A stretch of DNA of 64,000 nucleotides from Candidatus Nomurabacteria bacterium (lineage in GTDB: Bacteria; Patescibacteriota; Minisyncoccia; Phycocordibacterales; UBA9973). The stretch lies in the NCBI GenBank assembly GCA_023267435.1, contig JAHFNH010000001.1, positions 174,839-238,838 on the forward strand, given 5' to 3'. Positions 386 to 62,382 of the stretch are shown piece by piece. Under the pieces are notes generated by a model. The model saw nothing but the letters and a program-made list of their open reading frames with translations. It searched no databases and was not told the DNA's origin. Every line of letters begins with the position of its first letter. Positions within the stretch are counted from its first letter, which is position 1. The position numbers were made by a program, and so were the translations under genes.

Positions 386-2137
386 CTAGCGGTCGTTTTC
401 AGTGTTGTTTCCTTCACTGTTATCATCGTGTTTACGATCATCTGACCACTTTGCTGCTTTCTTGATCCAGTCTCCGACAATGCCAGTTACTTTATCGTTG
501 TTTTTGCCACTTAAACTAGGGCAACCAAACTTAAGTCTACTGTCATTCTCTTCACCGTCTCTTTTCTTATTGTCTTCTCTATCACTGTCGTTATAATTAC
601 CTTGGTCTTCGTTGTTCTTATCATCGATACTTTCTTTAGTTTGTTTATGGTCGATGATTTGAGCACAACTACATCCTCTGGTGTCAACCAAACTTACAGC
701 TTTTGCTGGAACGATATTTGGCTTCTTGGCTGTTCCAATGTTTGCCATCCAAGTCAATGCACCGTTTACATTAAACACTGCAAGATTGTTTGGCTTCAAT
801 GTTGTAACTGTATCAGCTACAGTTCCAGGACATTGATCAACTTCATCGGCGACTCCGTCTTTATCTGCATCTTTTACTCCGCAAGTAGCTACTACAGGGA
901 ATGACAAAGTTAGTGTTCCTTGATTTGGATCAAGAACAACTCCTACTGTAGTTGCTTCTCTACCAGGGGCTCTGCGTAGGGCAGGGGTTTGTGATTTAGT
1001 CAATTGCATTAATTGATCTACGTTCAATGAACTTGAATAACTTTTTCCACCGTCTGCAGACAATTCATTTGTTTTTGAACCTAAACTAAGAGTTCCTGGA
1101 TCAAAATAGAAATCTCCACCATCTGGTGCTACGTATGTAGTATTTGCTTTTGAAAGTACAACATCGTTTGTTGTTGTAGGTGCAACTGTATCAAACTTCA
1201 ATGTTCCATTTACTGCATCATATACAGCGTTGGTTAATGTGTATGTAGCTTTTGTTGTTACATCCATCATATATATAGTACCTGTTTTTGCTGTCATGTT
1301 GGCATCAAATTTAGGCATCCAATCTATATTGTTTGGAGAAAACTGTACATTTATATTGTCAGATACTAATGATCTTCCATCAAAAATTACTAGACTTAGA
1401 GGTGTTTTAAGTGTTGGATTTGTTTTATCCATAGTAACAGTTGTGTTACAAGGATCAACTGGAGGAGTACAATTATTTACCATTGATAATTTCAATGTTC
1501 CTAAATTGTTATCAGCTACCACAGAAATTTGTGTCACTACTCCTGCTGCATCCTTTACATACAATGTGGAATAATTCATTAATTCTGCTTTACCTAGAGA
1601 AGGAACGAATTTTACATTGTCGACAGAGAATGTAGCCGTTTTTGATGATAATGAAAATGTATTTACATCAAAAGATAAATCCACGCCCTTTACTGTTACT
1701 ATAGGATTTGTTTGTGAAAGTACAACGGTTGTTGTAGCTGTCACAACATCAAATGTAAGGGAAGCTCCTATTATATCAAATTTTGCATTAGTGAATGTTG
1801 TCGCTGCGTCGATAGTCTTTGTTGTTGAATAATAGAATATGCCTGATTTTGACATTAAGGTTGCCATATCAAAAGATTGAAACCAATTAGTTCCATCACT
1901 TGAAAATGCACCATTCATATTATTTGATACTAATGTAGATCTACCGTCATAAGTTATAGTATCTCCTGTGGATGTTGTATAAATGGTGTTTGTCTTATTA
2001 AGACTAACAGTTGTAGGTGGACAATTTGTCACAACCTGACCTCTTGTTAGATTTGCTATATAAACGATACCAGCAATAACAGCGACAGCTGCTAAGCCGA
2101 GGAAAACTTTGTGATGAATTTTATGCATGTTAAACAT
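386..2137 (-). CDS. Large secreted/surface protein with N-terminal signal-anchor and beta-rich S/T/N repeats. It has a thrombospondin type-3-like Ca-binding repeat (DADKDGVADEVDQC) and an acidic low-complexity C-terminus.
   Basis: 583-aa ORF with a hydrophobic N-terminus (LGLAAVAVIAGIVYIA). A DxDxDGxxDxxDxC motif is present. The LRRAPGREA motif is shared with the 1239-aa protein at 37608. Confidence 0.6.
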   Translation of the reverse strand: MFNMHKIHHKVFLGLAAVAVIAGIVYIANLTRGQVVTNCPPTTVSLNKTNTIYTTSTGDTITYDGRSTLVSNNMNGAFSSDGTNWFQSFDMATLMSKSGIFYYSTTKTIDAATTFTNAKFDIIGASLTFDVVTATTTVVLSQTNPIVTVKGVDLSFDVNTFSLSSKTATFSVDNVKFVPSLGKAELMNYSTLYVKDAAGVVTQISVVADNNLGTLKLSMVNNCTPPVDPCNTTVTMDKTNPTLKTPLSLVIFDGRSLVSDNINVQFSPNNIDWMPKFDANMTAKTGTIYMMDVTTKATYTLTNAVYDAVNGTLKFDTVAPTTTNDVVLSKANTTYVAPDGGDFYFDPGTLSLGSKTNELSADGGKSYSSSLNVDQLMQLTKSQTPALRRAPGREATTVGVVLDPNQGTLTLSFPVVATCGVKDADKDGVADEVDQCPGTVADTVTTLKPNNLAVFNVNGALTWMANIGTAKKPNIVPAKAVSLVDTRGCSCAQIIDHKQTKESIDDKNNEDQGNYNDSDREDNKKRDGEENDSRLKFGCPSLSGKNNDKVTGIVGDWIKKAAKWSDDRKHDDNSEGNNTENDR

Positions 2138-7062: not shown

Positions 7063-8112
7063 ATGGAAATCATGAATGAAGTAATTAAAAAAATTCATAC
7101 TTCTCTTGATAAGGAACCAGCAGGACTAAGGTCTAGTGATATTGCAAAACAAGTCGGAGTATCACGAGTAACTATTCTTTCCCAGTTAAAGAAACTTGAA
7201 AAACAAGGGTTGATTATTCGTTTTGATAATGGACCTAAAACTTGGTATATATTAACCAAACATCAAGATGCTTTATTTCAAAAAGGGCTTTCTTTTTGGA
7301 AAATTTACAAAAACACAAAACTAGAAGAACATATCGTTTTAGAAGAATTACAAAATTACCTTCTTAAAAAGATAAAATTATCTGACCAAGCTAAATCTAT
7401 ATTTGGCTATGCTTTTTCTGAAATGATGAATAATGCGATTGAACATTCTAGGTCCAAAAGAATAAAGGTTGAATGTTCTGTTCAAAAAAAAGATATTATA
7501 TGTGTAATAGAGGATTATGGTATTGGAGCTTTCAATAATGTTAAAACAAAAAAGAGACTTCCAAATGAAACAGAAGCAGCTCGCGAAATTTTGAAGGGTA
7601 AAGTTACCACAGACACAACAGCTCACACTGGACAGGGAATTTTCTTTACTTCACGAGCAACAGACAGGTTTATGATTGAAAGTCATTCCCATGCGATTGT
7701 CGTAGAAAATGAAAATGGAAATAATGTAAGAATAGTAGAATTAAAAAAGAAAATTCGAGGTACTGCAGTTACTTTTTTTATTAAAATAAATACAAAACTT
7801 CATTTAACTAGTGTTTTTAGTAAATATGCGGAAGCTGATATAGATGGATTTAATACAACTGAGATTCATGTTAATTTATATGCAAACGGAGACCATCTTG
7901 TTTCTAGGTCACAAGCAAGACGTATTGTTGTTGGGCTCGATAAGTTTTCAAAAATAATTTTTGATTTTTCAGGAATTGCTCATATAGGACAGGGATTTGC
8001 TGATGAAATATTCAGAGTTTTTGCAAAAAAATATTCAACAATCGAAATAAAACCAATTCATATGAAAAAAGAAGTGAGCTTTATGGTAAGGAGAGCACGA
8101 GCTGAAAAATAA
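7063..8112 (+). CDS. Fusion protein: winged HTH + GHKL/anti-sigma-type ATPase (HATPase_c) + C-terminal STAS-like DUF4325
   Basis: N-terminal wHTH (SDIAKQVGVSRVTILSQLKKLEKQGLI). N-box AFSEMMNNAIEHS and DYGIG of GHKL kinases. C-terminal SRSQARRIVVGLDKFSKIIFDFSGIAHIGQGFADEIF matches DUF4325/STAS. Confidence 0.6.
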   Translation: MEIMNEVIKKIHTSLDKEPAGLRSSDIAKQVGVSRVTILSQLKKLEKQGLIIRFDNGPKTWYILTKHQDALFQKGLSFWKIYKNTKLEEHIVLEELQNYLLKKIKLSDQAKSIFGYAFSEMMNNAIEHSRSKRIKVECSVQKKDIICVIEDYGIGAFNNVKTKKRLPNETEAAREILKGKVTTDTTAHTGQGIFFTSRATDRFMIESHSHAIVVENENGNNVRIVELKKKIRGTAVTFFIKINTKLHLTSVFSKYAEADIDGFNTTEIHVNLYANGDHLVSRSQARRIVVGLDKFSKIIFDFSGIAHIGQGFADEIFRVFAKKYSTIEIKPIHMKKEVSFMVRRARAEK

Positions 8113-37570: not shown

Positions 37571-37630
37571 TCAAGTATTTTAATTATTAGTTTAATTTTA
37601 TAAAAAAATGAAAAAATATATATTAGGAAG
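37571..37630 (+). promoter_or_regulatory. Duplicated promoter/leader module, copy 1
   Basis: ttttaattattagtttaatttt(a)taaaaaaatgaaaaaatatatattagg is about 90% identical to 41432-41482. Confidence 0.5.
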
Positions 37631-40600
37631 TTTAGTTTTAATGAGTATGGTTGGTTTTTTAGGAGTTAACATTCAGCATGTCGATGCTAAAGTCAAGATT
37701 GGTGCTAAATGTGGTGGATCGACTAGAAGTTCTCAAGATGGAATGCTTGTTCCTAATCGCTGGACACTTTATTCTAATGGAAGTGGTGGATATTACGTAG
37801 CTTGTGGTATTTTACCAGTCCACCGTCCTTGGCCAATAGCCGAAAACATCCAAAGCCCAGTATCAAACACAGTAATTCCTAACACAGCAAATCCTGGAGT
37901 ATCTGCAACAAACCCTATCCAATATATATTTAGAACATATCCGTTATTACCAGGTGATCCTCTTCCTGCCAATGATCCTGCAACTATCGGAAATAATCCT
38001 CCACCAATAGATCCGTATTCAAATGGTACGGAAACTCCTGTAGATGTAAATGCAGATGGCACTGTTGGATCGATTTTTAGTACTATTGCTTCAACTGCTA
38101 AAGTAATTTGGGAGCCAACATCATTGTTTGATAATATGGAATTTTGGAATCAACCTATGATGAGCTCTTTCAGAGCATTTAGACAAAGTACTGGTGGTAA
38201 TACTCCGGCTGAAAAATGGTATCCTGCACAAATAAACACGCTTCCAAATCCTGCTTCACAAATTCCATTAACTCGAGTTAAATTAAGTTGGAAACCCGTG
38301 GCTGGAGCAGACAGTTACCATGTAAAAATCACAGTAGTTAACAATCCATTAAACGTAGATCCAAATACACCAGCAGAGGTGGTTGTACCTGCTACTACTA
38401 GAAATTATGAGTTCGATGGACGAGGCAAGGTTTGGTATAAGTCTGAAGCGGTACCGTTTGTAGCTGGTCAGGAAATTATAGGACCAGATATAATAGAACA
38501 ACCTATAGTTTCAATGGTTCAAGGAAATATAAATACCAGTCATCCAAATGATTACTACACTTATAAATGGCCTACTATTTTGGGAGCTGTGAGTTATAAA
38601 TTGCAATACGCAGTATCATTTGCACCAATTATAGAAGGAACTCCTTTTGCAGATGGTGCTACATTTGTTGAAAATTCAAAAACAGTGATTGGTACTCCCG
38701 GTGGTCTTTATACTGTAACAACACATGTTTTACCTGGTGTTATAAATGAAAACAGTAATGACTCAGATACTGGCTATCATTCATTTGATTTCGCAAATAG
38801 TCCTCTTGCTAGTATTCACCCTACTATTCCTTTTCAAGATATTTATTGGCGTGTTGAAGGTATCGATAATCAGGGTAATGTTATTAAAGAGAATATTAAA
38901 TCAACAAATTACTTCACTCCTCCTGTCGCAAAGAAACCATACGCTCAAGCTTTCCCAACTTGGAACAGTACCGCTGGTGCGACTTCTTATGTAGTCGATA
39001 TGGCTGAAACACCTGATGCCCTTAATCTATTGCCAAAATTAACAAATCAAACATCTGTTGCAGAAAAAACAGGCACAACTACAAGTTCTGGAACTTTTCT
39101 TCTTAGAAGAATAGCTCCTGCTCATTCATATACTACTGGCACATTGAATGCTGGTCTATATGCCAATGACAGCGCTAAAAAATTTGTAGTTGATGAAATA
39201 ATAAAGTCATTAAAAGAAGATAGAATTTCATTTGTTAATATTAATGCAGCAATGGGAATATATGATTTTGAAAATTCTGTAGATGAAGCAGATGCTTTGG
39301 ATAGAGGAGTACCATATGTACCGGTAGATTATCAAGGAAATGACATGGATATAGTGACAAATTTCGACAATAATAGTCCTTCAAATTACTCTGATTATCT
39401 TTCTGCGGAAAATTGGATATATCCGTTAGTCACCGATGAATTAGGTTTGGTTGTCGTACCTCAAACAGCTTCAAATGTTCTTAAATTCACCACTAATGCA
39501 CCTATTAGTATTAAAAAGATTCTGACTGGTAATGCCACAATAAGTGTCAGTCAAATCGTTACTAATTCTAGTCCTACTAACTACAAGATGACGACAACTC
39601 TGACTTTTGGAGGCACAAATGGTTCCTATGCATTCAATATAACCAAGCATGGTAACAACGGTCTGAACTTAGCGGATGAAAATGTAAATCAATATGATCT
39701 GACATATCCGACAATCGGACCTGTATCAGTGGTTCCAAGTTTGGGTGGCAAAGATATCACTGAGTTCGCAAGATTGCTTCCAGGCAAACAATATTTCTAC
39801 CGAGTTACACCTCTAACAGACTCAAGCGCTGAAACCAATGTACCATTTACTTTCGGACTAACATCTCCAGTAATGTCATTAACCACTCCGACTATGACTC
39901 CTGATTCAATGACCATCTCCACTGATGGTGAAACAACTCTTTCTGCATATGATTTACAAGGTACGATCAAATCATTAGATATTAATACTAATCAGAAACT
40001 ATTACTACGAAGACCTCCTGGCAGAGAAGCCATCAATACACCTATCACTTGGACTGTGGTTCCTAGTGCCATAGATTATGTTGTTACACTTAAGGATGCA
40101 AACCATCAAGTGATTCAGACTGTTGCAACAACAGGGTCAACATATACAATAACCGATCCTAATGTGGCTTATTATTCCTTGCAAGCTCGTAATTCTGTGG
40201 GTGCAGGAACAGCAAGTATAGACTATCTTTTGCCAGTTTCCGTAGTTTCCAAAACAGCAACAATAGGAACTGTTTCTGTAAAAACCTATCTTGCCAATCT
40301 CAAGGCTTATATGACATCTCTAAAGGCTACAAGAAAAGCTTATGAAGCTTCTTTCAAAGCTACAAGCGCTGCCAATAAAACACGTCTTACAGCTATTAAA
40401 ACAGCCAATGCAACGGTTTCTAAATCCATTAAAAATGTTAATGCATTGAGTGGTTCTGTTAAGGTTACTCCAACTCCAACCAATCCCAGTAGTCCTTTTA
40501 AATCTGCCCTAAATGTTCCTATTAACAATTTGAAAGTTCAAATAGTTGTGGAGACAGCGCCTGGTGTATATACATCTGTCAGCGTGCCCAGCGCTACTGT

Positions 40601-41327
40601 GATTTCTACTACTCCAGCAGGAATTATAAAATGTCCGGCAGTGGCCGGGGTAGCATATCCTGCGACAGTAGATTGTTCTGAAACAGGATTGGCATTGAAT
40701 TCCAGTGTAAAGTTATCAGCGACTTCCACCATACCGACAATATTAAACACTCACTTCTATCAGTGGACTATGATACCTGGTTCGACTTCAGCCGGAGTAA
40801 ATACTTGTACTTATCCTTCTTCCAGCAATAATATCTTGTGTACAATGACAGGCACCAGAGAGATTCAAGCAGTTTATCAGTGTAACGATGGCTATGGATT
40901 CAACACTAAATCAAATCAATGTGAGAAGTCTGCCGTAGTTCAGACAGCTTGTACTAAGTTTAGCCCTACGATGACAAATTGCGGTCTTGGTTTAAATATC
41001 AGCCGAATAAATAAAAATTCTTTTACTTACAATGTGGCTGTTTCTCCAGCATCGCCTCTAGTGTCTGTGAACACCGCGCCAAGTTCTTCTTCACAATGTG
41101 TTAATAGTGGAACTTCGACTGCGACAAATTGTTATTTGTTCTACAATTCTTCTCCGCAATCAGTGACCTTGACTGCGTCTTCTTCTTCAGGAAGTCTGCC
41201 AGTCGGTTTCAAATGGATAGCGGGAACAGGATTGCCTTGTAACAATTCCACTTCAGCTACTTGTACTGTAAATATCACTAACCTGACTTCACAAGTTGCC
41301 GGAGGCATAACTGCTTCATTTCCTTAA
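37608..41327 (+). CDS. Giant secreted surface protein (1239 aa, S/T/N/P-rich, probably Ig/FN3-like beta domains)
   Basis: Signal peptide MKKYILGSLVLMSMVGFLGV. The LLRRPPGREA motif is shared with the 386..2137 protein. Confidence 0.6.
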   Translation: MKKYILGSLVLMSMVGFLGVNIQHVDAKVKIGAKCGGSTRSSQDGMLVPNRWTLYSNGSGGYYVACGILPVHRPWPIAENIQSPVSNTVIPNTANPGVSATNPIQYIFRTYPLLPGDPLPANDPATIGNNPPPIDPYSNGTETPVDVNADGTVGSIFSTIASTAKVIWEPTSLFDNMEFWNQPMMSSFRAFRQSTGGNTPAEKWYPAQINTLPNPASQIPLTRVKLSWKPVAGADSYHVKITVVNNPLNVDPNTPAEVVVPATTRNYEFDGRGKVWYKSEAVPFVAGQEIIGPDIIEQPIVSMVQGNINTSHPNDYYTYKWPTILGAVSYKLQYAVSFAPIIEGTPFADGATFVENSKTVIGTPGGLYTVTTHVLPGVINENSNDSDTGYHSFDFANSPLASIHPTIPFQDIYWRVEGIDNQGNVIKENIKSTNYFTPPVAKKPYAQAFPTWNSTAGATSYVVDMAETPDALNLLPKLTNQTSVAEKTGTTTSSGTFLLRRIAPAHSYTTGTLNAGLYANDSAKKFVVDEIIKSLKEDRISFVNINAAMGIYDFENSVDEADALDRGVPYVPVDYQGNDMDIVTNFDNNSPSNYSDYLSAENWIYPLVTDELGLVVVPQTASNVLKFTTNAPISIKKILTGNATISVSQIVTNSSPTNYKMTTTLTFGGTNGSYAFNITKHGNNGLNLADENVNQYDLTYPTIGPVSVVPSLGGKDITEFARLLPGKQYFYRVTPLTDSSAETNVPFTFGLTSPVMSLTTPTMTPDSMTISTDGETTLSAYDLQGTIKSLDINTNQKLLLRRPPGREAINTPITWTVVPSAIDYVVTLKDANHQVIQTVATTGSTYTITDPNVAYYSLQARNSVGAGTASIDYLLPVSVVSKTATIGTVSVKTYLANLKAYMTSLKATRKAYEASFKATSAANKTRLTAIKTANATVSKSIKNVNALSGSVKVTPTPTNPSSPFKSALNVPINNLKVQIVVETAPGVYTSVSVPSATVISTTPAGIIKCPAVAGVAYPATVDCSETGLALNSSVKLSATSTIPTILNTHFYQWTMIPGSTSAGVNTCTYPSSSNNILCTMTGTREIQAVYQCNDGYGFNTKSNQCEKSAVVQTACTKFSPTMTNCGLGLNISRINKNSFTYNVAVSPASPLVSVNTAPSSSSQCVNSGTSTATNCYLFYNSSPQSVTLTASSSSGSLPVGFKWIAGTGLPCNNSTSATCTVNITNLTSQVAGGITASFP

Positions 41328-50489: not shown

Positions 50490-51263
50490 ATGGGGATAAT
50501 AATTAAAACACCAGCAGAAATAGAAAAGATAAGAGAAGCCAGTAAGCGATTGGCTTTTGTTTTGGACGAAGTAAAAAAAATAGTTAAGCCTGGAGTTTCC
50601 ACTAAAGAGCTTGATAAATATGCAGAGAAATTAATCAGGGAACAGGGTGATTCTCCCGCTTTCCTTAATTATCGTCCTGTTGGGGCAAAAAAACCTTTTC
50701 CAGCGTCATTGTGCGTTTCAGTGAATGAAGAAGTGGTACATGGCATTCCAAAGGAAGATAAAATATTACAAGAGGGCGACATTGTTTGCATTGATTTGGG
50801 GATTAATCATAAAGGTGTCTTTGCTGATATGGCTTACACTGTGCCGGTAGGGGAAGTTTCATCTGCATCTAAAAAACTTATGGATACCACACAGCGTAGT
50901 TTGATGGTAGGTATCGATGCGGCGCGTGGAGGTGGCAGGGTTGGAGATATTGGTTATGCGATTGAAAGTTTTGTTAAAAAACAAGGAAGGTTTGGTATCG
51001 TGGAAGTTTTAGCGGGGCATGGAGTCGGACGTGAGATACATGAGGATCCATATATTCCAAATTTTGGCAAAAAGGGGACAGGGGCGAAGCTAGTACCAGG
51101 AATGGTGATAGCCATCGAGCCGATGTTAAACAATGGCACCAAGAATGTAGTAATTGGAAAAGATGATTGGACCATATCAACTGCCGACAAAAAACGTAGC
51201 GCGCATTTCGAGCATACTATTTTAATTACCGAAGATGAACCAGAAATACTAACGATCCAATAA
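50490..51263 (+). CDS. map: Methionine aminopeptidase type I
   Basis: Metal ligands in DIVCIDLG, HGVGREIHE and EHT. Confidence 0.9.
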   Translation: MGIIIKTPAEIEKIREASKRLAFVLDEVKKIVKPGVSTKELDKYAEKLIREQGDSPAFLNYRPVGAKKPFPASLCVSVNEEVVHGIPKEDKILQEGDIVCIDLGINHKGVFADMAYTVPVGEVSSASKKLMDTTQRSLMVGIDAARGGGRVGDIGYAIESFVKKQGRFGIVEVLAGHGVGREIHEDPYIPNFGKKGTGAKLVPGMVIAIEPMLNNGTKNVVIGKDDWTISTADKKRSAHFEHTILITEDEPEILTIQ

Positions 51264-51267
51264 AAAT

Positions 51268-51302
51268 AAAAAATCCTCCACCAGATGGTGGAGGATTTTT
51301 TA
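51268..51302. terminator. Intrinsic terminator (CCTCCACCA...TGGTGGAGG variant)
   Basis: Stem atcctccaccag/tggtggaggat plus a T-run. Confidence 0.7.
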
Positions 51303-51318
51303 TTTTTATTATATTGTT

Positions 51319-51792
51319 TTAGTTACCACTGAAACTATCTGAATAACCTGATCCTTCCTCATAATCTTGTTTTTCTTGATTCCATATTGGAAATCCTACA
51401 CCTTTACCTAGCGCAATTTTATATTTTTCTGCTTTTTCTGGATTTATTTTCTCTATATCTGCTAATGATTTTTTAGTATGTTTATTTTCTAATTTTTTAT
51501 CTAAAACTTTTTGACTAAATTTTGTTTCAAATATGGAAGAAACTTTTTTACCCATTTTTTCCCATATACTCTGTCTCGTCTCTTCTATTTTTTGTTCTTT
51601 AGCGGCTTCCTTTTCTTCTTTTTTCATTTCTTGAGCAGAATCTATTTTCTGTTCAGCCATTCCCTTTTTTGCAGCTTCTTCAGTGCCTTCGACTTTTTGT
51701 TCTGGTAATTTTTCTTTAGATTGCGCAGTTTGTTTTGACTGCATCTCTAAAAGTTCTTCTCTTACATCTTTAGTTAATCCTTCTATTTTCAT
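51319..51792 (-). CDS. Lys/Glu-rich hypothetical protein
   Basis: 157 aa, highly charged and coiled-coil-like. Confidence 0.4.
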   Translation of the reverse strand: MKIEGLTKDVREELLEMQSKQTAQSKEKLPEQKVEGTEEAAKKGMAEQKIDSAQEMKKEEKEAAKEQKIEETRQSIWEKMGKKVSSIFETKFSQKVLDKKLENKHTKKSLADIEKINPEKAEKYKIALGKGVGFPIWNQEKQDYEEGSGYSDSFSGN

Positions 51793-51988
51793 ATTTTTTA
51801 ATTTAAAATTGTTTTTTAATAAACGACCCCCTAATAATCACCTCAAAAGTATAACATTATTATAATAATTTTTCATTGCTTTTACTGTTCCATTATATCA
51901 TATCGTAGTCAAATGTCAAGGTTGACTTATTTCAAAAAACTGATATTATCTTAAGTAAATATATTGTTTTTTAACTAAAAATTCAGCC

Positions 51989-52147
51989 ATGCTTATATTT
52001 CTTAAGAAATTTTTTCAGCCTTGGTTTCAGGAAAACCAACCGAAAAGGAGGATTGTTTCTAATACTCTTAATGGAAGGGTTTATAAGTTCAATTTTGCTC
52101 CAAAAGAATTAATAAAAAAAGATCCGTTGAAAGTAAATTTAAATTAA
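51989..52147 (+). CDS. Small upstream ORF (52 aa) followed by a terminator, ahead of the large ATPase gene
   Basis: ATG at 51989 downstream of TTGACT-N16-TATTAT. Terminator at 52146-52186. Confidence 0.2.
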   Translation: MLIFLKKFFQPWFQENQPKRRIVSNTLNGRVYKFNFAPKELIKKDPLKVNLN

Positions 52148-52217
52148 AACCGCATTGTTTGCAACAGAATGCGGTTTTTATTTTGTCTTTTAGTGAATTC
52201 AAAGTATAATTAAACCA

Positions 52218-54971
52218 ATGGAAGGATCATTTTTAGAGGAAATGCCAAAATTCAAAACTCCGGAAGAGGAGCTCGGTTATTTGCGCGCGCATGTGGCGAA
52301 ACGCGAACAAGAACTCATTAATGCCGGGCGTTTTGAGAGCGCTCAAGAAAATGCAGTTCAAGAAATAATTACTGAATACGAAAAAGTTCCGGTGAGTCAG
52401 GCTATTCATGAGCGCAATATAATAGAAAAAGAAGAGGCAGAAGAAGTTGTGCTCAGATTAAAACCAGAAACACACGATCGAGTGATGGAAGAACTTTTAG
52501 GTTTAGTTCTCACGAAAGGCATCAGAAATGCTTTGTCGGTAGTAGAAGCAATGAACAATCCGCATATTGATGACGATTTTCACCGATTGTTGATTCAATA
52601 TTTAAAAACAGGACAAAAAGTGCCAGACTTGAAAGAAGGCACGCCTCTTTGGAAACAATTAAACATTACACTTTATGAAGTTACTTTGCCGGAGCAATCA
52701 GGCGAAGAGAAAAAAGGTTTCAAGGAATTCATTGGCGCGATGGAGCAGTTCTATGCCGGCATGCAGTCTATTTCTTCCGGACGCAACAATGAAGAAAGAA
52801 ATTATTTTTCATTGGAAATAGCTTTAGGAAATCAAACCGACGAAGTTGTTGTTTATGTAGCTGTACCAAATAGCTTCGTTTCTCTTTTTGAAAAGCAGAT
52901 TTTAGCTTTTTACCACGATGCGAAAGTAGTAGAAGTTGAGGATGATTACAATGTTTTCACGGACAATGGTTTTTCTGCTGGAGCTTATGCTAAATTCTCC
53001 GAGCGTTCCGTATTACCTATTAAGACTTATGATGTGATAGACCATGATCCGATGAATACTATTCTGAGTGTTTTCTCAAAATTAAAGTCGAGTGGCGAGG
53101 GCGCGGCAATACAATTCGTTATAGCTCCAGCGGGAGAAAAATACATTAAAGAATTTCACCTTATTTTAGATGATGTGAAAGATGGAATGTCTGTGAAACA
53201 TGCTGCGGATAATTTTTATAAATTCAATAAAGCCATTTTGAAAGCTTCGAAGGAATTATTTTTCGGAGTAAAAAAAGAAACAGAGAAAAAAGAAAAATAC
53301 ATTGCTGGCAGAAGTGCAGTAGATGAAGGCGCAGCGGAAAAAATAGGCAATAAGCTAAAAAGTACCATTATGGAAGCCAATATTCGCCTCATCGCTTCAG
53401 CGGGAACAAAAGAAAGAGCGGATGCAATATTAAGAGAAATAGAATCATCTTTCAATCAATTTACCGAAACAGCCAGCAACTCGATTATTTTTGAAAAAGT
53501 TCAAGGAAGCGAAGTGAAAGAATTTTTCCACGATTTTTCTTATCGCGCTTTTTCGAAAAATAAATCTATGCCGATGAATTTAAAAGAGCTCGCATCCGTA
53601 TTTCATTTTCCTATTGGTGTGGAAGGCATGGCACAATTGCGTGAAGCCAAGTCCGGTATTGCTCCCGCTCCTATGCAAATGGGCGGAGATGGGATTGTAT
53701 TAGGTATAAATAGTTATCGCGGAAAAGACACTGAAATCCGCATGGCGCGAGAAGACAGAGTGCGCCATATGTATGTCATCGGTCAGACGGGAACAGGTAA
53801 GACGAATATTTTGCTTAATATGATTACTCAGGACATTAAAAATGGTGATGGATGTTGTTACATCGATCCGCACGGCACAGATATTCAAACCATACTTAGT
53901 CGTATTCCAAAAGAAAGAATAGATGATGTTATTTACTTCGATCCGGCTTATACAGCGCGACCAATGGGGCTCAATATGCTCGAGTATGATCCAAATTATC
54001 CTGAGCAAAAGACTTTCGTGGTCAATGAAATGATGGGTATTTTCAATAAGCTTTTCGATATGAAAGCTGGAGGCGGAGCGATGTTTGAACAATATTTTAG
54101 AAATAGCGCATTTCTGGTGATGGAAGATCCAGAATCAGGTTCGACTTTGCTTGAAATTACCAGAGTTTTGGCGGATAAAGAATTTCGTGATTTAAAACTT
54201 TCTAGATGTAAGAATCCGATCATTAAGCAGTTTTGGGTTTCTGCGGAACAAACTTCCGGTGATCAATCTTTGGCAAACTTCGTGCCATATATTTCTTCAA
54301 AGTTTGATAACTTTATTTCCAACGACATTATGCGTCCAGTCGTACTTCAGCAGAATTCAGTTTTCAATTTTAGAAAAATTATGGACGAGAAGAAAATTCT
54401 TTTGGTAAATCTTTCAAAAGGCAGACTCGGTGATATCAATGCGAACTTGATCGGTCTTGTACTGGTGGGTAAAATTCAAATGGCAGCGCTTTCCCGTGTG
54501 GATATGTTCGGCAAGCCTATGAATGATTTTTATCTTTATATTGATGAGTTTCAAAATGTTACTACTGATTCTATTTCTTCAATTCTTTCGGAAGCTAGAA
54601 AATATAGATTGTCTCTCAATATTGCGCACCAATATATTGCTCAGTTGGATGAGGGAATTAAGAATGCAGTCTTTGGCAACGTCGGCTCGATGGCAATCTT
54701 CCGTGTCAGTCCTGAAGATGCAACTTTCTTAGAACCAAAATTCAAACCGGTATTTACTTCTCATGATATAACCAAGCTCGACAACTACAATGCTTACATG
54801 AGCATGTTGGTAAATGGCCAGCCGACCAAGCCTTTCAATTTAAAAACTTTAGCGCCTGAAAGAGGTAATCCAGAAATAATAGATAGTCTCAAAGAACTTT
54901 CATATCTAAAATACGGCCGTGATAGAGAAGAAGTAGAAGCTGAAATCATGGCTCGCTACTCCTCGATGTAA
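52218..54971 (+). CDS. Large soluble P-loop ATPase of the FtsK/HerA/VirD4-TraG superfamily with an uncharacterised ~450-aa N-terminal domain
   Basis: Walker A GQTGTGKT followed by YIDPHG, Walker B LYIDEFQN. No TM helices. Confidence 0.6.
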   Translation: MEGSFLEEMPKFKTPEEELGYLRAHVAKREQELINAGRFESAQENAVQEIITEYEKVPVSQAIHERNIIEKEEAEEVVLRLKPETHDRVMEELLGLVLTKGIRNALSVVEAMNNPHIDDDFHRLLIQYLKTGQKVPDLKEGTPLWKQLNITLYEVTLPEQSGEEKKGFKEFIGAMEQFYAGMQSISSGRNNEERNYFSLEIALGNQTDEVVVYVAVPNSFVSLFEKQILAFYHDAKVVEVEDDYNVFTDNGFSAGAYAKFSERSVLPIKTYDVIDHDPMNTILSVFSKLKSSGEGAAIQFVIAPAGEKYIKEFHLILDDVKDGMSVKHAADNFYKFNKAILKASKELFFGVKKETEKKEKYIAGRSAVDEGAAEKIGNKLKSTIMEANIRLIASAGTKERADAILREIESSFNQFTETASNSIIFEKVQGSEVKEFFHDFSYRAFSKNKSMPMNLKELASVFHFPIGVEGMAQLREAKSGIAPAPMQMGGDGIVLGINSYRGKDTEIRMAREDRVRHMYVIGQTGTGKTNILLNMITQDIKNGDGCCYIDPHGTDIQTILSRIPKERIDDVIYFDPAYTARPMGLNMLEYDPNYPEQKTFVVNEMMGIFNKLFDMKAGGGAMFEQYFRNSAFLVMEDPESGSTLLEITRVLADKEFRDLKLSRCKNPIIKQFWVSAEQTSGDQSLANFVPYISSKFDNFISNDIMRPVVLQQNSVFNFRKIMDEKKILLVNLSKGRLGDINANLIGLVLVGKIQMAALSRVDMFGKPMNDFYLYIDEFQNVTTDSISSILSEARKYRLSLNIAHQYIAQLDEGIKNAVFGNVGSMAIFRVSPEDATFLEPKFKPVFTSHDITKLDNYNAYMSMLVNGQPTKPFNLKTLAPERGNPEIIDSLKELSYLKYGRDREEVEAEIMARYSSM

Positions 54972-55034
54972 TAGTTTGAGTAATTTTTCAAAACCTGCTA
55001 ATATAGCGGTATTACAATTTTAATTTAATTTTTT

Positions 55035-55511
55035 ATGGCAAAACCTAATGAAGAGAAATCCTTAATAATTATCAAGCCGGACGCAGTACAGCGTAACTTG
55101 GTTGGAGAAATGATAAGTCGTTTTGAAAGAAAAGGTCTTAAACTCATCGGAATGAAAATGATGAGTATTGAGGACGCAATATTAGAAGAACATTATGCGC
55201 ATATAAAAGACATGCCATTTTTCCCTGGTGTTCGAAACTACATGAAAGCTTGTCCTGTAATAGTAATGGCAATCGAGGGTATCAATGCTGTGTCAGCTAT
55301 TCGCTTGCTTGTAGGTCCAACAAAGGCATGGGAAGCAAATGCTGGTACTATTCGCGGTGATTTTTCTTTATCTAAACAGTCAAATCTTGTGCATGCTTCT
55401 GATTCTATTGAAAATGGAGAAGCAGAAATTAAAAGATTTTTTAAACACGAAGAATTGTTTAATTATTCAAAGATTGATACTGATTTTATTTACGCAGAAC
55501 ACAAAGAATAA
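55035..55511 (+). CDS. ndk: Nucleoside diphosphate kinase
   Basis: IIKPDAVQRNLVGEMISRFE and NLVHASDS. Confidence 0.9.
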   Translation: MAKPNEEKSLIIIKPDAVQRNLVGEMISRFERKGLKLIGMKMMSIEDAILEEHYAHIKDMPFFPGVRNYMKACPVIVMAIEGINAVSAIRLLVGPTKAWEANAGTIRGDFSLSKQSNLVHASDSIENGEAEIKRFFKHEELFNYSKIDTDFIYAEHKE

Positions 55512-55514
55512 TTT

Positions 55515-55550
55515 TAAAAAATCCTCCGCCAGCTGGCGGAGGATTTTTAT
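55515..55550. terminator. Intrinsic terminator (CCTCCGCCA...TGGCGGAGG family)
   Basis: Stem atcctccgccagc/tggcggaggat plus a T-run. Confidence 0.7.
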
Positions 55551-61874: not shown

Positions 61875-61887
61875 TAACAGAATATTG

Positions 61888-62266
61888 GGACTGCAAGGCA
61901 TAGACAGTAAGCCATTTGCTATTGATGCATGCCGAGTATGGACGTAATCTCGTTAAAATTCGTTCAAATGTTAATTGCAAAATTGACTTCAAAGCAATCT
62001 CCATACTTCGGTATGAAAGATCTTGCTCTAGCCTTCGCGTAAGCCTCGGCTAGTGTCTCTCTCATAGACTTCCGATATATGAGTCGAGGCATAATATTAT
62101 CGGGATAGGGAAGAGAATGTCCTGACTCTTCTCCGAAACAAAAGGAATCGGTTCTGAAATATTTCGTGCACTTAAGAATTTCAGAATTTAAACAAAAAAG
62201 TGTACTAAGCATGTAGATTTCCTTGCAACTACTTTCTGCACTGGGGTTCAATTCCCCACAGTTCCA
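61888..62266 (+). ncRNA. ssrA: Transfer-messenger RNA (tmRNA, ssrA)
   Basis: Starts 13 nt after smpB. The 5' gggacug pairs with the 3' caguucc, giving a G3.U70 wobble with discriminator A. T-arm ugggg-uucaauu-cccca lies at 62242-62258. gcaugccgag (61927-61936) is shared with E. coli tmRNA. The tag ORF from GCA at 61977 reads AKLTSKQSPYFGMKDLALAFA and stops at 62040. Confidence 0.75.
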
Positions 62267-62382
62267 CAAATTCATTTAGCTATTATAATATAAAGGTATT
62301 TATATATTGACTTTTGTGTTTATTTATGATACAATTGCTTGTAAATAAGGATAACGTTGTTCTTATAAAAAAGGAGGTCTAA

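What the first reader, a model, noticed from the sequence alone, without database searches (positions are those of the whole stretch)
51989..54971. 917-aa soluble VirD4/TraG-HerA-superfamily ATPase with a novel N-terminal half, preceded by a promoter, a 52-aa uORF and a terminator
The C-terminal half has Walker A GQTGTGKT followed by IDPHG (the DPKG-like motif of coupling proteins) and Walker B IDEFQN. There are no transmembrane segments, and the 450-aa N-terminal domain is unrecognisable. Upstream are a good promoter (TTGACT-N16-TATTAT), a 52-aa ORF and an intrinsic terminator (52146-52186), all before the ATPase start. This suggests leader-peptide or attenuation control. Divergently transcribed is a K/E-rich coiled-coil protein. 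An orphan coupling-protein-like ATPase in a tiny genome could serve DNA uptake or transfer, or a defence function.
Basis: partly seen in the sequence, partly recalled or inferred. Interest (0 to 1): 0.55.

Follow-up and report, generated by a model that had tools for sequence, protein, structure and literature searches.

The report
Core VirB4-like secretion ATPase, orphaned
The 917-aa gene encodes a very strongly conserved, membrane-anchor-free motor protein built like the VirB4 ATPase of type IV secretion systems. It is a core chromosomal gene of Nomurabacteria-type ultra-small bacteria with its own leaderless promoter, and the upstream promoter, small ORF and terminator form a separate lineage-specific mini-gene, not an attenuator.

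Summary
The interpretation needs correcting in three ways.

2. It is not a stray mobile-element gene. At least 561 species representatives carry it, and the order adk–pyrH-like–map–ATPase–ndk is fixed. Residues 500–800 are 87–97% identical across 72 species, which is more conserved than map or adk.

3. In nearly all 80 related loci a (TGn)TATAAT box lies 6–8 nt before the ATG and there is no Shine-Dalgarno sequence. In the window this promoter (52183–52210) lies downstream of the terminator. The small ORF with its own promoter and terminator recurs in only one related lineage and has only two database members. Attenuation is not supported.

The function is inferred, not shown. The most likely role is a cytoplasmic hexameric motor that docks on the patescibacterial T4SS or a derived envelope machine. 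The family was already counted in the literature as an unexplained "T4CP homologue".

The parts
51263..51306 (.). Palindromic bidirectional terminator after map. It closes the upstream adk-pyrH-like-map unit and also the minus-strand K/E-rich gene.
   Evidence: Terminator scan. The core TCCTCCACCAGATGGTGGAGGA at 51274-51295 has a near-twin after ndk, with 0 matches expected by chance.
51319..51792 (-). Variable K/E-rich 157-aa ORF inserted between map and the ATPase. It is not part of the ATPase system.
   Evidence: ORF list. Composition is 19% K and 17% E. No tblastn hit in 80 related loci. The minus-strand ORFs in the same slot in L001 and L081 are unrelated to it.
51892..51919 (-). Consensus sigma-70-type promoter (TTGACA-N16-TGnTATAAT, 12 of 12 matches) facing the K/E-rich ORF.
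   Evidence: The -35 region is conserved in L081.
51922..51949 (+). Promoter-like site TTGACT-N16-TATTAT (extended -10) for the small-ORF transcript.
   Evidence: The block TGTCAAG.TTGACTT is conserved in L081.
51989..52147 (+). Lineage-specific 52-aa ORF. It is an independent mini-gene, not a leader peptide.
   Evidence: The homologous 66-aa ORF in L081 gives pairwise E = 2e-6. Only two proteins match among 5.8 billion. Absent from L001-L080.
52146..52184 (+). Intrinsic-terminator hairpin plus U-tract that ends the small-ORF transcript.
   Evidence: Free energy -14.2 kcal/mol, z = -3.1. L081 has a hairpin of different sequence at the same position (-14.6 kcal/mol, z = -5.6).
52183..52210 (+). 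Proximal promoter of the ATPase (TTGTCT-N16-TATAAT). The -10 box ends 7 nt before the ATG, which implies a leaderless mRNA.
   Evidence: A (TGn)TATAAT box lies 6-8 nt before the ATG in nearly all 80 related loci, with no SD sequence. The same layout occurs at many operon-first genes in this window.
52218..52637 (+). Residues 1-140: helical N-terminal extension with conserved PEEELxYLR and NPHxxDDFHR motifs. It takes the place of the transmembrane helix found in a sister branch.
   Evidence: AF2 secondary structure. Alignment consensus. Sister-branch proteins P0258 and P0270 have an N-terminal TM helix directly before DUF8128.
52650..53618 (+). Residues about 145-467: DUF8128 domain, an alpha/beta fold like the N-terminal domain of VirB4/TrwK.
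53685..54968 (+). Residues about 490-917: RecA-like P-loop motor with a helical insertion (about 596-709), of VirB4-CTD/TrwB type. Walker A is at nt 53781-53804, DPHG at 53865-53876 and Walker B at 54531-54548.
55035..55511 (+). ndk, the conserved downstream neighbour. It is probably co-transcribed, because no terminator lies between the two genes.
   Evidence: ORF list. Synteny. No terminator found in 54971-55035.
55517..55548 (.). Palindromic terminator that closes the ATPase-ndk unit.

Best explanation
The ORF encodes a cytoplasmic P-loop motor of the type IV secretion ATPase clade. Its domain plan is that of VirB4: an alpha/beta N-terminal domain (Pfam DUF8128, VirB4-NTD-like) followed by a RecA-like C-terminal ATPase with a helical insertion. 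Its P-loop sequence motifs are closest to VirD4/TrwB coupling proteins.

It is a vertically inherited core gene of Nomurabacteria/Paceibacterota (Patescibacteria), fixed between map and ndk. It is transcribed from its own promoter as a leaderless mRNA, probably together with ndk.

Inferred mechanism:
- Like VirB4 and TrwB, it assembles into a ring or trimer-of-dimers.
- It is recruited to the membrane through the DUF8128 domain and the N-terminal helical extension, the surface that in VirB4 binds VirB3 and VirB8.
- It uses ATP hydrolysis to energise or feed substrate to the patescibacterial T4SS encoded elsewhere, or to a machine derived from it.

The upstream promoter, 52-aa ORF and terminator form a separate, fast-evolving mini-gene inserted at the variable map/ATPase junction. 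They do not regulate the ATPase by attenuation.

Shown here: family and fold assignment, conservation, synteny, promoter layout, and non-conservation of the small ORF.
Inferred: oligomeric state, membrane docking, partner machine and substrate.
For: Fold:
- The full AF2 model has pLDDT 83.9 and the N-terminal model 83.5.
- Foldseek aligns the full model co-linearly over about 860-910 columns with full-length TrwK chains, E about 1e-13.

Sequence:
- Walker A, DPHG and Walker B motifs are present.
- TrwB_AAD_bind and TraG-D_C score above their Pfam cut-offs.
- A family profile hits TrwB at 9e-5 and DotL at 6e-4.
- The protein carries DUF8128.

Core-gene status:
- At least 561 species representatives carry it.
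- The order adk-pyrH-like-map-X-ndk-membrane-MBL-LOG is conserved.
- Median identity is 77%, against 70% for map and 60% for adk. Residues 500-800 are 87-97% identical.

Promoter:
- A TATAAT box lies 6-8 nt before the ATG in nearly all loci.
- The genome lacks SD sequences and uses the same layout elsewhere.

Link to T4SS:
- A sister branch carries an N-terminal TM helix before DUF8128.
- One such gene is followed by a protein with a T4SS_pilin domain, E = 1.2e-5.

Literature:
- 5,713 VirD4-type homologues were found in 2,918 Patescibacteria genomes. Only 148 lie near virB4, and their function is left open (PMC12102498).
- VirB3 wraps around the VirB4 NTD (PMC9259494).

Small ORF:
- It is homologous only in L081.
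- Only two database members exist.
- It is absent from L001-L080.
Against: - No T4SS component, relaxase or pilin is encoded next to the gene in the window or in the 80 syntenic loci. The link to a T4SS therefore rests on homology alone.
- No sequence-level match to VirB4 families (CagE_TrbE_VirB, AAA_10, NCBIfam VirB4) was found for any of 27 family members.
- The extreme conservation and housekeeping context would fit a function unrelated to secretion equally well.
- The t4cp homologue of S. epibionticum was reported as non-essential while the T4SS is essential (PMC12102498). Whether that gene is a DUF8128 orthologue was not checked.
- The transcription start sites are predicted, not measured.
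Confidence: 0.6

Rival explanations
1. It is a housekeeping nucleic-acid translocase: an FtsK/HerA-like ring that pumps DNA or RNA for chromosome segregation, repair, or import of host nucleic acid. It has been fully exapted from its T4SS ancestry and works without a secretion channel.
For: - The gene has a fixed position among translation and nucleotide-metabolism genes (adk, pyrH-like, map, ndk).
- Conservation is at the level of essential genes.
- No adjacent T4SS genes were found.
- There are weak NCBIfam hits to the archaeal DNA-import ATPases CedD (2e-4) and CedB (5e-3).
- The authors of PMC12102498 raise exaptation themselves.
Against: - The N-terminal domain matches the VirB4 NTD, not the HAS barrel of HerA or the FtsK N-terminal or gamma domains.
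- No NurA-like nuclease partner is present.
- A TM-anchored sister branch lies next to a T4SS_pilin protein.
Confidence: 0.25
2. It is a bona fide conjugative coupling protein (VirD4/TraG/TraD) belonging to an integrated mobile element, and it recruits a relaxase-DNA complex.
For: - TrwB_AAD_bind and TraG-D_C score above their Pfam cut-offs.
- NCBIfam TraD models hit at 4e-13 and 5e-11.
- NCBI names homologues 'TraM recognition domain-containing protein'.
Against: - There is no transmembrane domain.
- The NCBIfam scores (42-49 bits) are far below the cut-offs of 366-648.
- The extra 450-aa VirB4-like N-terminal half is not found in T4CPs.
- Synteny is identical in 76 of 80 species-level loci, with no relaxase or integrase.
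- Base composition is the same as the surroundings.
- Relaxases are rare in Patescibacteria: 109 across 103 genomes (PMC12102498).
Confidence: 0.04
3. It is the ATPase of an anti-phage defence system (HerA-Sir2/Nezha, MADS mad8, or Dnd DptH-like).
For: - PADLOC mad8 hits at 2.6e-11 over residues 516-817, with weaker HerA models.
Against: - No effector partner (Sir2, nuclease or methylase) is adjacent.
- The gene is universal, syntenic and under strong purifying selection. Defence islands behave in the opposite way.
- The PADLOC match covers only the generic P-loop core.
Confidence: 0.03
4. One reading: the distal promoter, the 52-aa leader peptide and the terminator control ATPase expression by attenuation.
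For: All three elements exist in the right order upstream of the gene. The arrangement recurs in L081.
Against: - A promoter lies between the terminator and the ATG, and it is the conserved element across about 80 species.
- The small ORF and terminator are absent from L001-L080. There the ATPase follows map directly, or other unrelated inserts occupy the gap.
- No alternative antiterminator fold is evident: the terminator persists in the MFE structure and the whole leader has z = -1.5.
- No Rfam family matches: the best hits reach only 24.8 bits, far below the gathering cut-offs of 50-59.
Confidence: 0.05

Closest known systems
VirB4 / TrwK (T4SS energising ATPase; PDB 7o42, 8rtd, 4ag5)
   Same: - It shares the two-domain plan of an alpha/beta N-terminal domain followed by a RecA-like C-terminal domain.
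- The size is similar (917 aa against about 800-820 aa).
- It is soluble and has no transmembrane segment of its own.
- A sister branch with an N-terminal TM helix resembles VirB3-VirB4 fusions.
   Different: - It has only 10-11% identity to VirB4 and no hit to VirB4 sequence families.
- It has an extra 140-aa helical N-terminal extension.
- It is not encoded in a T4SS cluster. Canonical patescibacterial virB4 genes are abundantly flanked by replication genes (dnaA, dnaN) and genes such as rnpA and rpmH, with T4SS components nearby (PMC12102498).
- Its P-loop motifs (DPHG, TraG-D_C) are VirD4-like.
Type IV coupling proteins VirD4 / TrwB / TraD / DotL
   Same: - The Walker A context RH-YVIGQTGTGKT...IDPHG closely parallels TrwB RHLLVNGATGTGKS...VDPNG.
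- TrwB_AAD_bind and TraG-D_C match.
- A helical insertion lies between Walker A and Walker B.
- This is most probably one of the 5,713 'T4CP homologues' counted in Patescibacteria.
   Different: - There is no N-terminal transmembrane domain.
- A 450-aa VirB4-like N-terminal half is present.
- There is no relaxase or T4SS linkage.
- The gene is chromosomal, core and highly conserved rather than carried by a mobile element.
- The NCBIfam TraD cut-offs are missed by a wide margin.
Pfam DUF8128 (PF26449) family
   Same: The identical database protein P0001 and all close homologues carry the precomputed PF26449 hit. This is the family to which the protein belongs.
   Different: The family has no assigned function, and no paper in the searched library mentions it.
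HerA / FtsK translocases and archaeal Ced DNA-import ATPases (CedB, CedD)
   Different: The N-terminal domain is not a HAS barrel. There is no NurA or Ced partner. The Ced models score far below their cut-offs.

Membership tests
Pfam DUF8128 (PF26449) | Match to the family HMM | tested here: met
   Precomputed PF26449.1 hit on the identical protein P0001 and on all 120 listed homologues. The name DUF8128 appears. The local Pfam copy reports no such hit for this protein, so the hit was not recomputed here.
VirB4 (T4SS ATPase) | N-terminal alpha/beta domain with the VirB4-NTD fold | tested here: met
VirB4 (T4SS ATPase) | C-terminal RecA-like ATPase domain of VirB4/TrwB type with Walker A and B | tested here: met
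VirB4 (T4SS ATPase) | Sequence-level match to VirB4 family models (CagE_TrbE_VirB, AAA_10, NCBIfam VirB4) | tested here: not met
   No such family appears among the hits for the protein or for any of 27 diverse family members.
VirB4 (T4SS ATPase) | Encoded within a T4SS cluster (VirB3, VirB6, VirB8, pilins) | tested here: not met
   The neighbours are adk, pyrH-like, map, ndk, a small membrane protein, an MBL-fold RNase-like protein and a LOG-like protein in the window and in about 80 loci. No T4SS domain was found among ten large ORFs of the window. The rest of the genome could not be examined.
VirB4 (T4SS ATPase) | Hexamer or trimer-of-dimers docked on VirB3/VirB8 at the membrane | not testable with these tools
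   This needs multimer modelling or experiment. It is known for TrwK from PMC9259494.
Type IV coupling protein (VirD4/TrwB/TraD) | N-terminal transmembrane anchor | tested here: not met
   The highest Kyte-Doolittle 19-residue window is 1.54 and lies in the ATPase core.
Type IV coupling protein (VirD4/TrwB/TraD) | Nucleotide-binding domain with Walker A, DPxG, Walker B and a TraG-D_C region | tested here: met
Type IV coupling protein (VirD4/TrwB/TraD) | Reaches the curated full-length family cut-offs (NCBIfam TraD/VirD4 models) | tested here: not met
   Best scores are 48.6 bits against a cut-off of 366 (TIGR03743) and 41.9 against 647 (TIGR03754).
Type IV coupling protein (VirD4/TrwB/TraD) | Genetic association with a relaxase or conjugative element | tested here: not met
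   No relaxase or integrase occurs in the window flanks or in the syntenic loci. The housekeeping synteny is conserved.
HerA-type helicase/translocase | N-terminal HAS-barrel domain and NurA (or other effector) partner | tested here: not met
   The N-terminal model does not hit HerA N-terminal domains. No partner gene is adjacent. Only the P-loop core matches (DUF87 at 18.2 bits, below the cut-off of 23.2).
Anti-phage defence ATPase (MADS mad8, HerA-Sir2) | Co-localisation with system partners and an accessory-gene distribution | tested here: not met
   The mad8 hit (2.6e-11) covers only the P-loop core. There are no partners, and the gene is universal and syntenic.
Leader-peptide / terminator attenuation | The terminator is the last element between the only promoter and the regulated gene, the leader is conserved with the gene, and an alternative antiterminator structure exists | tested here: not met
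   A conserved promoter lies downstream of the terminator. The leader ORF is absent from L001-L080. No alternative fold was found.

The most novel reading that the evidence does not exclude
DUF8128 proteins are a previously unrecognised second VirB4 lineage that Paceibacteria-type Patescibacteria have fixed as an essential, housekeeping-level motor. One version is that it is the missing 'coupling' ATPase that feeds host-derived or exported macromolecules through the essential patescibacterial T4SS. Another is that it is a T4SS-independent translocase that replaces a lost core function. Either reading would explain why 'T4CP homologues' are nearly universal in CPR genomes yet unlinked to virB4.
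Probability: 0.3. Interest if true: 0.7.

Novelty: new variant of a known kind. Interest (0 to 1): 0.45.

Why it matters
Patescibacteria depend on hosts, and their T4SS is the first one shown to be essential for growth (PMC10633639, PMC12857230). No coupling protein is recognisable in the S. epibionticum T4SS cluster, and thousands of unlinked 'T4CP homologues' remain unexplained (PMC12102498).

This analysis shows that one of these homologue families is a VirB4-architecture motor. It is among the most conserved proteins of its neighbourhood and has a membrane-anchored sister form next to a T4SS-pilin-domain gene. That gives a concrete candidate for the missing energising or substrate-selecting ATPase, and a testable hypothesis for DUF8128.

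It also corrects an appealing but wrong regulatory reading. It documents that this lineage lacks Shine-Dalgarno sequences in this window and places -10 boxes where leaderless transcripts are expected.

Tried and rejected
- **Rfam searches.** The whole window at gathering thresholds gave only the tmRNA. The 51750-52300 region at E <= 10 gave only chance-level hits. There is no known riboswitch or leader.
- **Whole-leader fold.** The predicted transcript 51956-52195 is not unusually structured (z = -1.5).
- **tblastn of the 52-aa ORF and the K/E-rich ORF against 80 loci.** There were no hits. A profile search of the small ORF against 5.8 billion proteins returned only itself and the L081-type protein.
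- **K/E-rich ORF against the minus-strand ORFs in the same slot of L001 and L081.** No significant similarity. It was rejected as a conserved partner.
- **Sequence search of PDB with the protein and with a family profile.** Only the P-loop stretch matched TrwB and DotL, so this said nothing about the N-terminal half.
- **PADLOC.** The mad8 and HerA hits are limited to the motor core. Defence was rejected on distribution.
- **Foldseek against AFDB50.** The library was unavailable.
- **Cluster-member look-up of distant representatives.** It gave almost no names or taxonomy.
- **Literature searches.** Searches for DUF8128 and for leaderless or SD usage in Patescibacteria found nothing.
- **P0002 contig.** No DNA was available. 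Whether its upstream 58-aa ORF is the same small gene remains unknown.
Full report
**1. What is in the sequence**

The ORF at 52218-54971 (+) encodes 917 aa.
- Walker A (GQTGTGKT) is at residues 522-529, the DPHG motif at 550-553 and Walker B (YLYIDEF) at 772-778.
- No 19-residue window reaches a transmembrane-like hydropathy. The maximum is 1.54, inside the ATPase core.

Upstream lie three elements:
- a promoter-like site TTGACT-N16-TATTAT at 51922-51949;
- a 52-aa ORF at 51989-52147;
- a hairpin at 52146-52178 with a U-tract (-14.2 kcal/mol, z = -3.1).

- a second + strand promoter, TTGTCT-N16-TATAAT, at 52183-52210, whose -10 box ends 7 nt before the ATG;
- a perfect consensus promoter on the minus strand at 51919-51892.

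**2. Organism and context**

- The window is 30-42% GC.
- It carries PNPase, RNase Y, RecJ, a ComM-like Mg-chelatase ATPase, GlmM-like phosphoglucosamine mutase and a tmRNA.
- The closest homologues come from Candidatus Nomurabacteria, Paceibacterota and Minisyncoccia MAGs.
- In this window almost no gene has a Shine-Dalgarno motif. Many operon-first genes have a TATAAT box ending 6-7 nt before the start codon. Leaderless initiation therefore looks like the normal mode in this genome.

**3. The gene is core, not accessory**

Eighty loci were fetched.
- In nearly all of them the order adk - pyrH-like - map - ATPase - ndk - small membrane protein - MBL-fold protein - LOG-like protein is kept.
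- Median identity to the window protein is 77% for the ATPase. It is 70% for map, 60% for adk, 61% for the pyrH-like gene and 78% for the MBL protein.
- Residues 500-800 are 87-97% identical across 72 species, and the N-terminal half is 55-74% identical.
- This pattern contradicts a mobile-element coupling protein and a defence gene.

**4. Regulation**

Across the loci, a (TGn)TATAAT box lies 6-8 nt upstream of the ATPase ATG with no SD sequence. This holds even where the box overlaps the 3' end of map. The window's equivalent is 52183-52210, downstream of the hairpin. The ATPase thus has its own leaderless promoter.

No terminator separates the ATPase from ndk. A palindromic terminator follows ndk at 55517-55548 and is a near-twin of the one after map at 51263-51306.

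The map/ATPase junction is variable:
- In most species the gap is 10-150 nt.
- In others it holds unrelated inserts, such as an ArsR-like ORF in L004, a 98-aa ORF in L018, L020 and L064, and a 261-aa minus-strand ORF in L001 and L002.

The window's small ORF is absent from all 80 loci. It does recur in L081, whose ATPase is 85% identical:
- it is a 66-aa ORF, with pairwise E = 2e-6;
- the divergent promoter block is conserved;
- a hairpin terminator of different sequence sits at the same position (-14.6 kcal/mol, z = -5.6).

A profile of the two small ORFs finds only those two proteins among 5.8 billion.

The simplest reading is a real but lineage-restricted mini-gene with its own promoter and terminator, inserted upstream of the ATPase promoter. 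Attenuation is not supported:
- the conserved element is the promoter after the terminator;
- the 'leader' is dispensable in almost all species;
- the leader RNA shows no alternative structure (z = -1.5);
- no Rfam family matches.

**5. The protein: sequence level**

- Pfam gives only short hits just above threshold: TrwB_AAD_bind at residues 509-554 and TraG-D_C at residues 771-829.
- NCBIfam TraD/VirD4 models hit at 1e-13 to 1e-7 but far below their cut-offs.
- PADLOC mad8 hits the motor core.
- PDB sequence searches find TrwB and DotL over the Walker A stretch.
- The identical database protein carries Pfam PF26449, which is DUF8128.
- A phmmer search with residues 1-480 against 1.84 billion cluster representatives finds 1,052 proteins at E <= 1e-3 and 609 at E <= 1e-10. 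The N-terminal half is therefore a widespread domain of unknown function, not a one-off.

**6. The protein: structure level**

- With a 27-sequence alignment spanning 38-86% identity, AlphaFold2 gives pLDDT 83.9 and pTM 0.70.
- An N-terminal-only model (residues 1-491) gives pLDDT 83.5 and pTM 0.76.
- That query contains no P-loop domain, and no RecA-like protein appears in its hit list. The match is therefore to the VirB4 N-terminal domain (TrwK residues 15-400, PMC9259494).
- Foldseek with the full model ranks full-length TrwK chains first. E is about 1e-13 and about 860-910 columns are aligned, so both domains align co-linearly. The TM-scores are low because the domain orientation differs.
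- The architecture is therefore VirB4-like. The C-terminal fold cannot separate VirB4 from VirD4, and the P-loop motifs are most like VirD4/TrwB.

**7. Family variants**

- The roughly 900-aa form has a 140-aa helical N-terminal extension with conserved PEEELxYLR and NPHxxDDFHR motifs.
- A sister branch of 800-840 aa has a transmembrane helix directly in front of DUF8128 instead. It comprises P0258, P0270 and twelve other representatives, most of them shorter. This recalls VirB3-VirB4 fusions.
- P0258 is followed by a 673-aa protein with a T4SS_pilin domain. The hit has E = 1.2e-5 and 25.8 bits, just under the cut-off of 26.6.
- P0270 sits in a cluster of unannotated membrane proteins downstream of an FtsQ-like POTRA gene.
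- In L085 a second paralogue carries the same motor (40% identity over 425 aa) at its N-terminus, followed by a 520-aa extension.
- More distant soluble members, such as P0278, again stand alone among housekeeping genes.

**8. Comparison with the literature**

- Quinonero-Coronel et al. 2025 (PMC12102498) found canonical VirB4 in 2,407 of about 3,035 Patescibacteria genomes. These lie in T4SS clusters whose neighbourhoods are rich in dnaA, dnaN, rnpA and rpmH.
- Separately, they found 5,713 VirD4-type 'T4CP homologues' in 2,918 genomes. Only 148 of these lie near virB4.
- They note that the S. epibionticum homologue is not essential and that exaptation cannot be excluded.
- Wang et al. 2023 (PMC10633639) state that the essential T4SS of S. 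epibionticum lacks recognisable coupling and relaxase proteins.
- The present protein is most probably one of those counted T4CP homologues. No paper in the library mentions DUF8128.

**9. Most likely mechanism**

Shown:
- a P-loop motor of the VirB4/VirD4 clade with intact catalytic motifs;
- a VirB4-type domain plan;
- a cytoplasmic location with no membrane anchor of its own;
- core-gene conservation;
- its own leaderless promoter.

Inferred from established knowledge of TrwK and TrwB:
- it forms a hexameric assembly;
- it is recruited to the membrane through the NTD and the N-terminal extension, which is the face that binds VirB3 and VirB8 in R388;
- ATP hydrolysis drives assembly of, or substrate delivery to, the patescibacterial T4SS or a derived envelope machine.

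My estimates are about 0.85 for the fold and family statement, about 0.9 for the regulatory re-interpretation and about 0.35 for the T4SS-docking function. The main rival, at about 0.25, is a fully exapted nucleic-acid translocase with a housekeeping role. A classical conjugative T4CP, a defence ATPase and attenuation control are each below about 0.05.

**10. Verdict**

The finding is real and the superfamily call was right. However, the 'novel' N-terminal domain is a catalogued DUF with a VirB4-like fold, and the 'orphan' is a core gene. The promoter, uORF and terminator form an unrelated mini-gene.

The family is already in databases and was noted, unexplained, in a 2025 survey. This is therefore a new variant of a known kind, not a new kind of system.

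Interest is moderate at 0.45. The protein is a strong candidate for the missing ATPase partner of an essential T4SS, or for an exapted T4SS motor, in a major uncultivated lineage. Its function remains untested.

Noticed in passing
window 51274-51295 and 55522-55543: Two near-identical palindromic terminator cores (TCCTCCNCCAGNTGGNGGAGGA) lie after map and after ndk. Chance expectation is 0. They bracket the block holding the K/E-rich gene, the small ORF, the ATPase and ndk. L001 and L002 have the same sequence after map.
   Followed up: partly
whole window (64 start-codon contexts): Shine-Dalgarno motifs are almost entirely absent. Many operon-first genes (for example 6214, 20655, 30859, 45635, 48381-, 60021-, 61428 and 62779) have a TATAAT-like box ending about 6-7 nt before the start codon. 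This implies widespread leaderless mRNAs.
   Followed up: partly
window 37608-41327 (+) and 386-2137 (-): A 1239-aa ORF and a 583-aa ORF have no Pfam hit at E <= 1e-5. They are large uncharacterised proteins in an otherwise housekeeping window.
   Followed up: no
window 51264-52217 and the equivalent gap in L001-L081: The map/ATPase junction is a hotspot for small, unrelated, lineage-specific inserts. Examples are K/E-rich minus-strand ORFs of 125-261 aa, an ArsR-like ORF in L004, and a 98-aa ORF shared by L018, L020 and L064. The flanking genes stay fixed.
   Followed up: partly
L085:505-3381: A 958-aa paralogue carries the same motor domain (40% identity over 425 aa) at its N-terminus, followed by a roughly 520-aa C-terminal extension and no DUF8128. 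It lies 4.6 kb upstream of a 1120-aa DUF8128 protein. This may account for the figure of about two T4CP homologues per genome in the literature.
   Followed up: partly
L086:8001-12579 and L082:4600-14600: Membrane-anchored DUF8128 ATPases exist (TM helix, then DUF8128, then motor). One is followed by a 673-aa protein with a T4SS_pilin domain. Another is embedded in a run of ten co-directional genes. Most have no Pfam hit and several are membrane or secreted proteins. The run includes an FtsQ-like POTRA protein and a proline-rich secreted protein.
   Followed up: partly
window 61887-62269 (+): A tmRNA gene is present (Rfam RF00023, 124 bits). A 103-aa ORF on the opposite strand (61964-62275) overlaps it and is presumably spurious.
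   Followed up: no
window 7063-8112 (+): A 349-aa protein combines a winged-helix HTH, an HATPase_c_2 (anti-sigma-factor-like kinase) domain and a DUF4325 STAS-like domain. This is an unusual fused partner-switching-type regulator.
   Followed up: no
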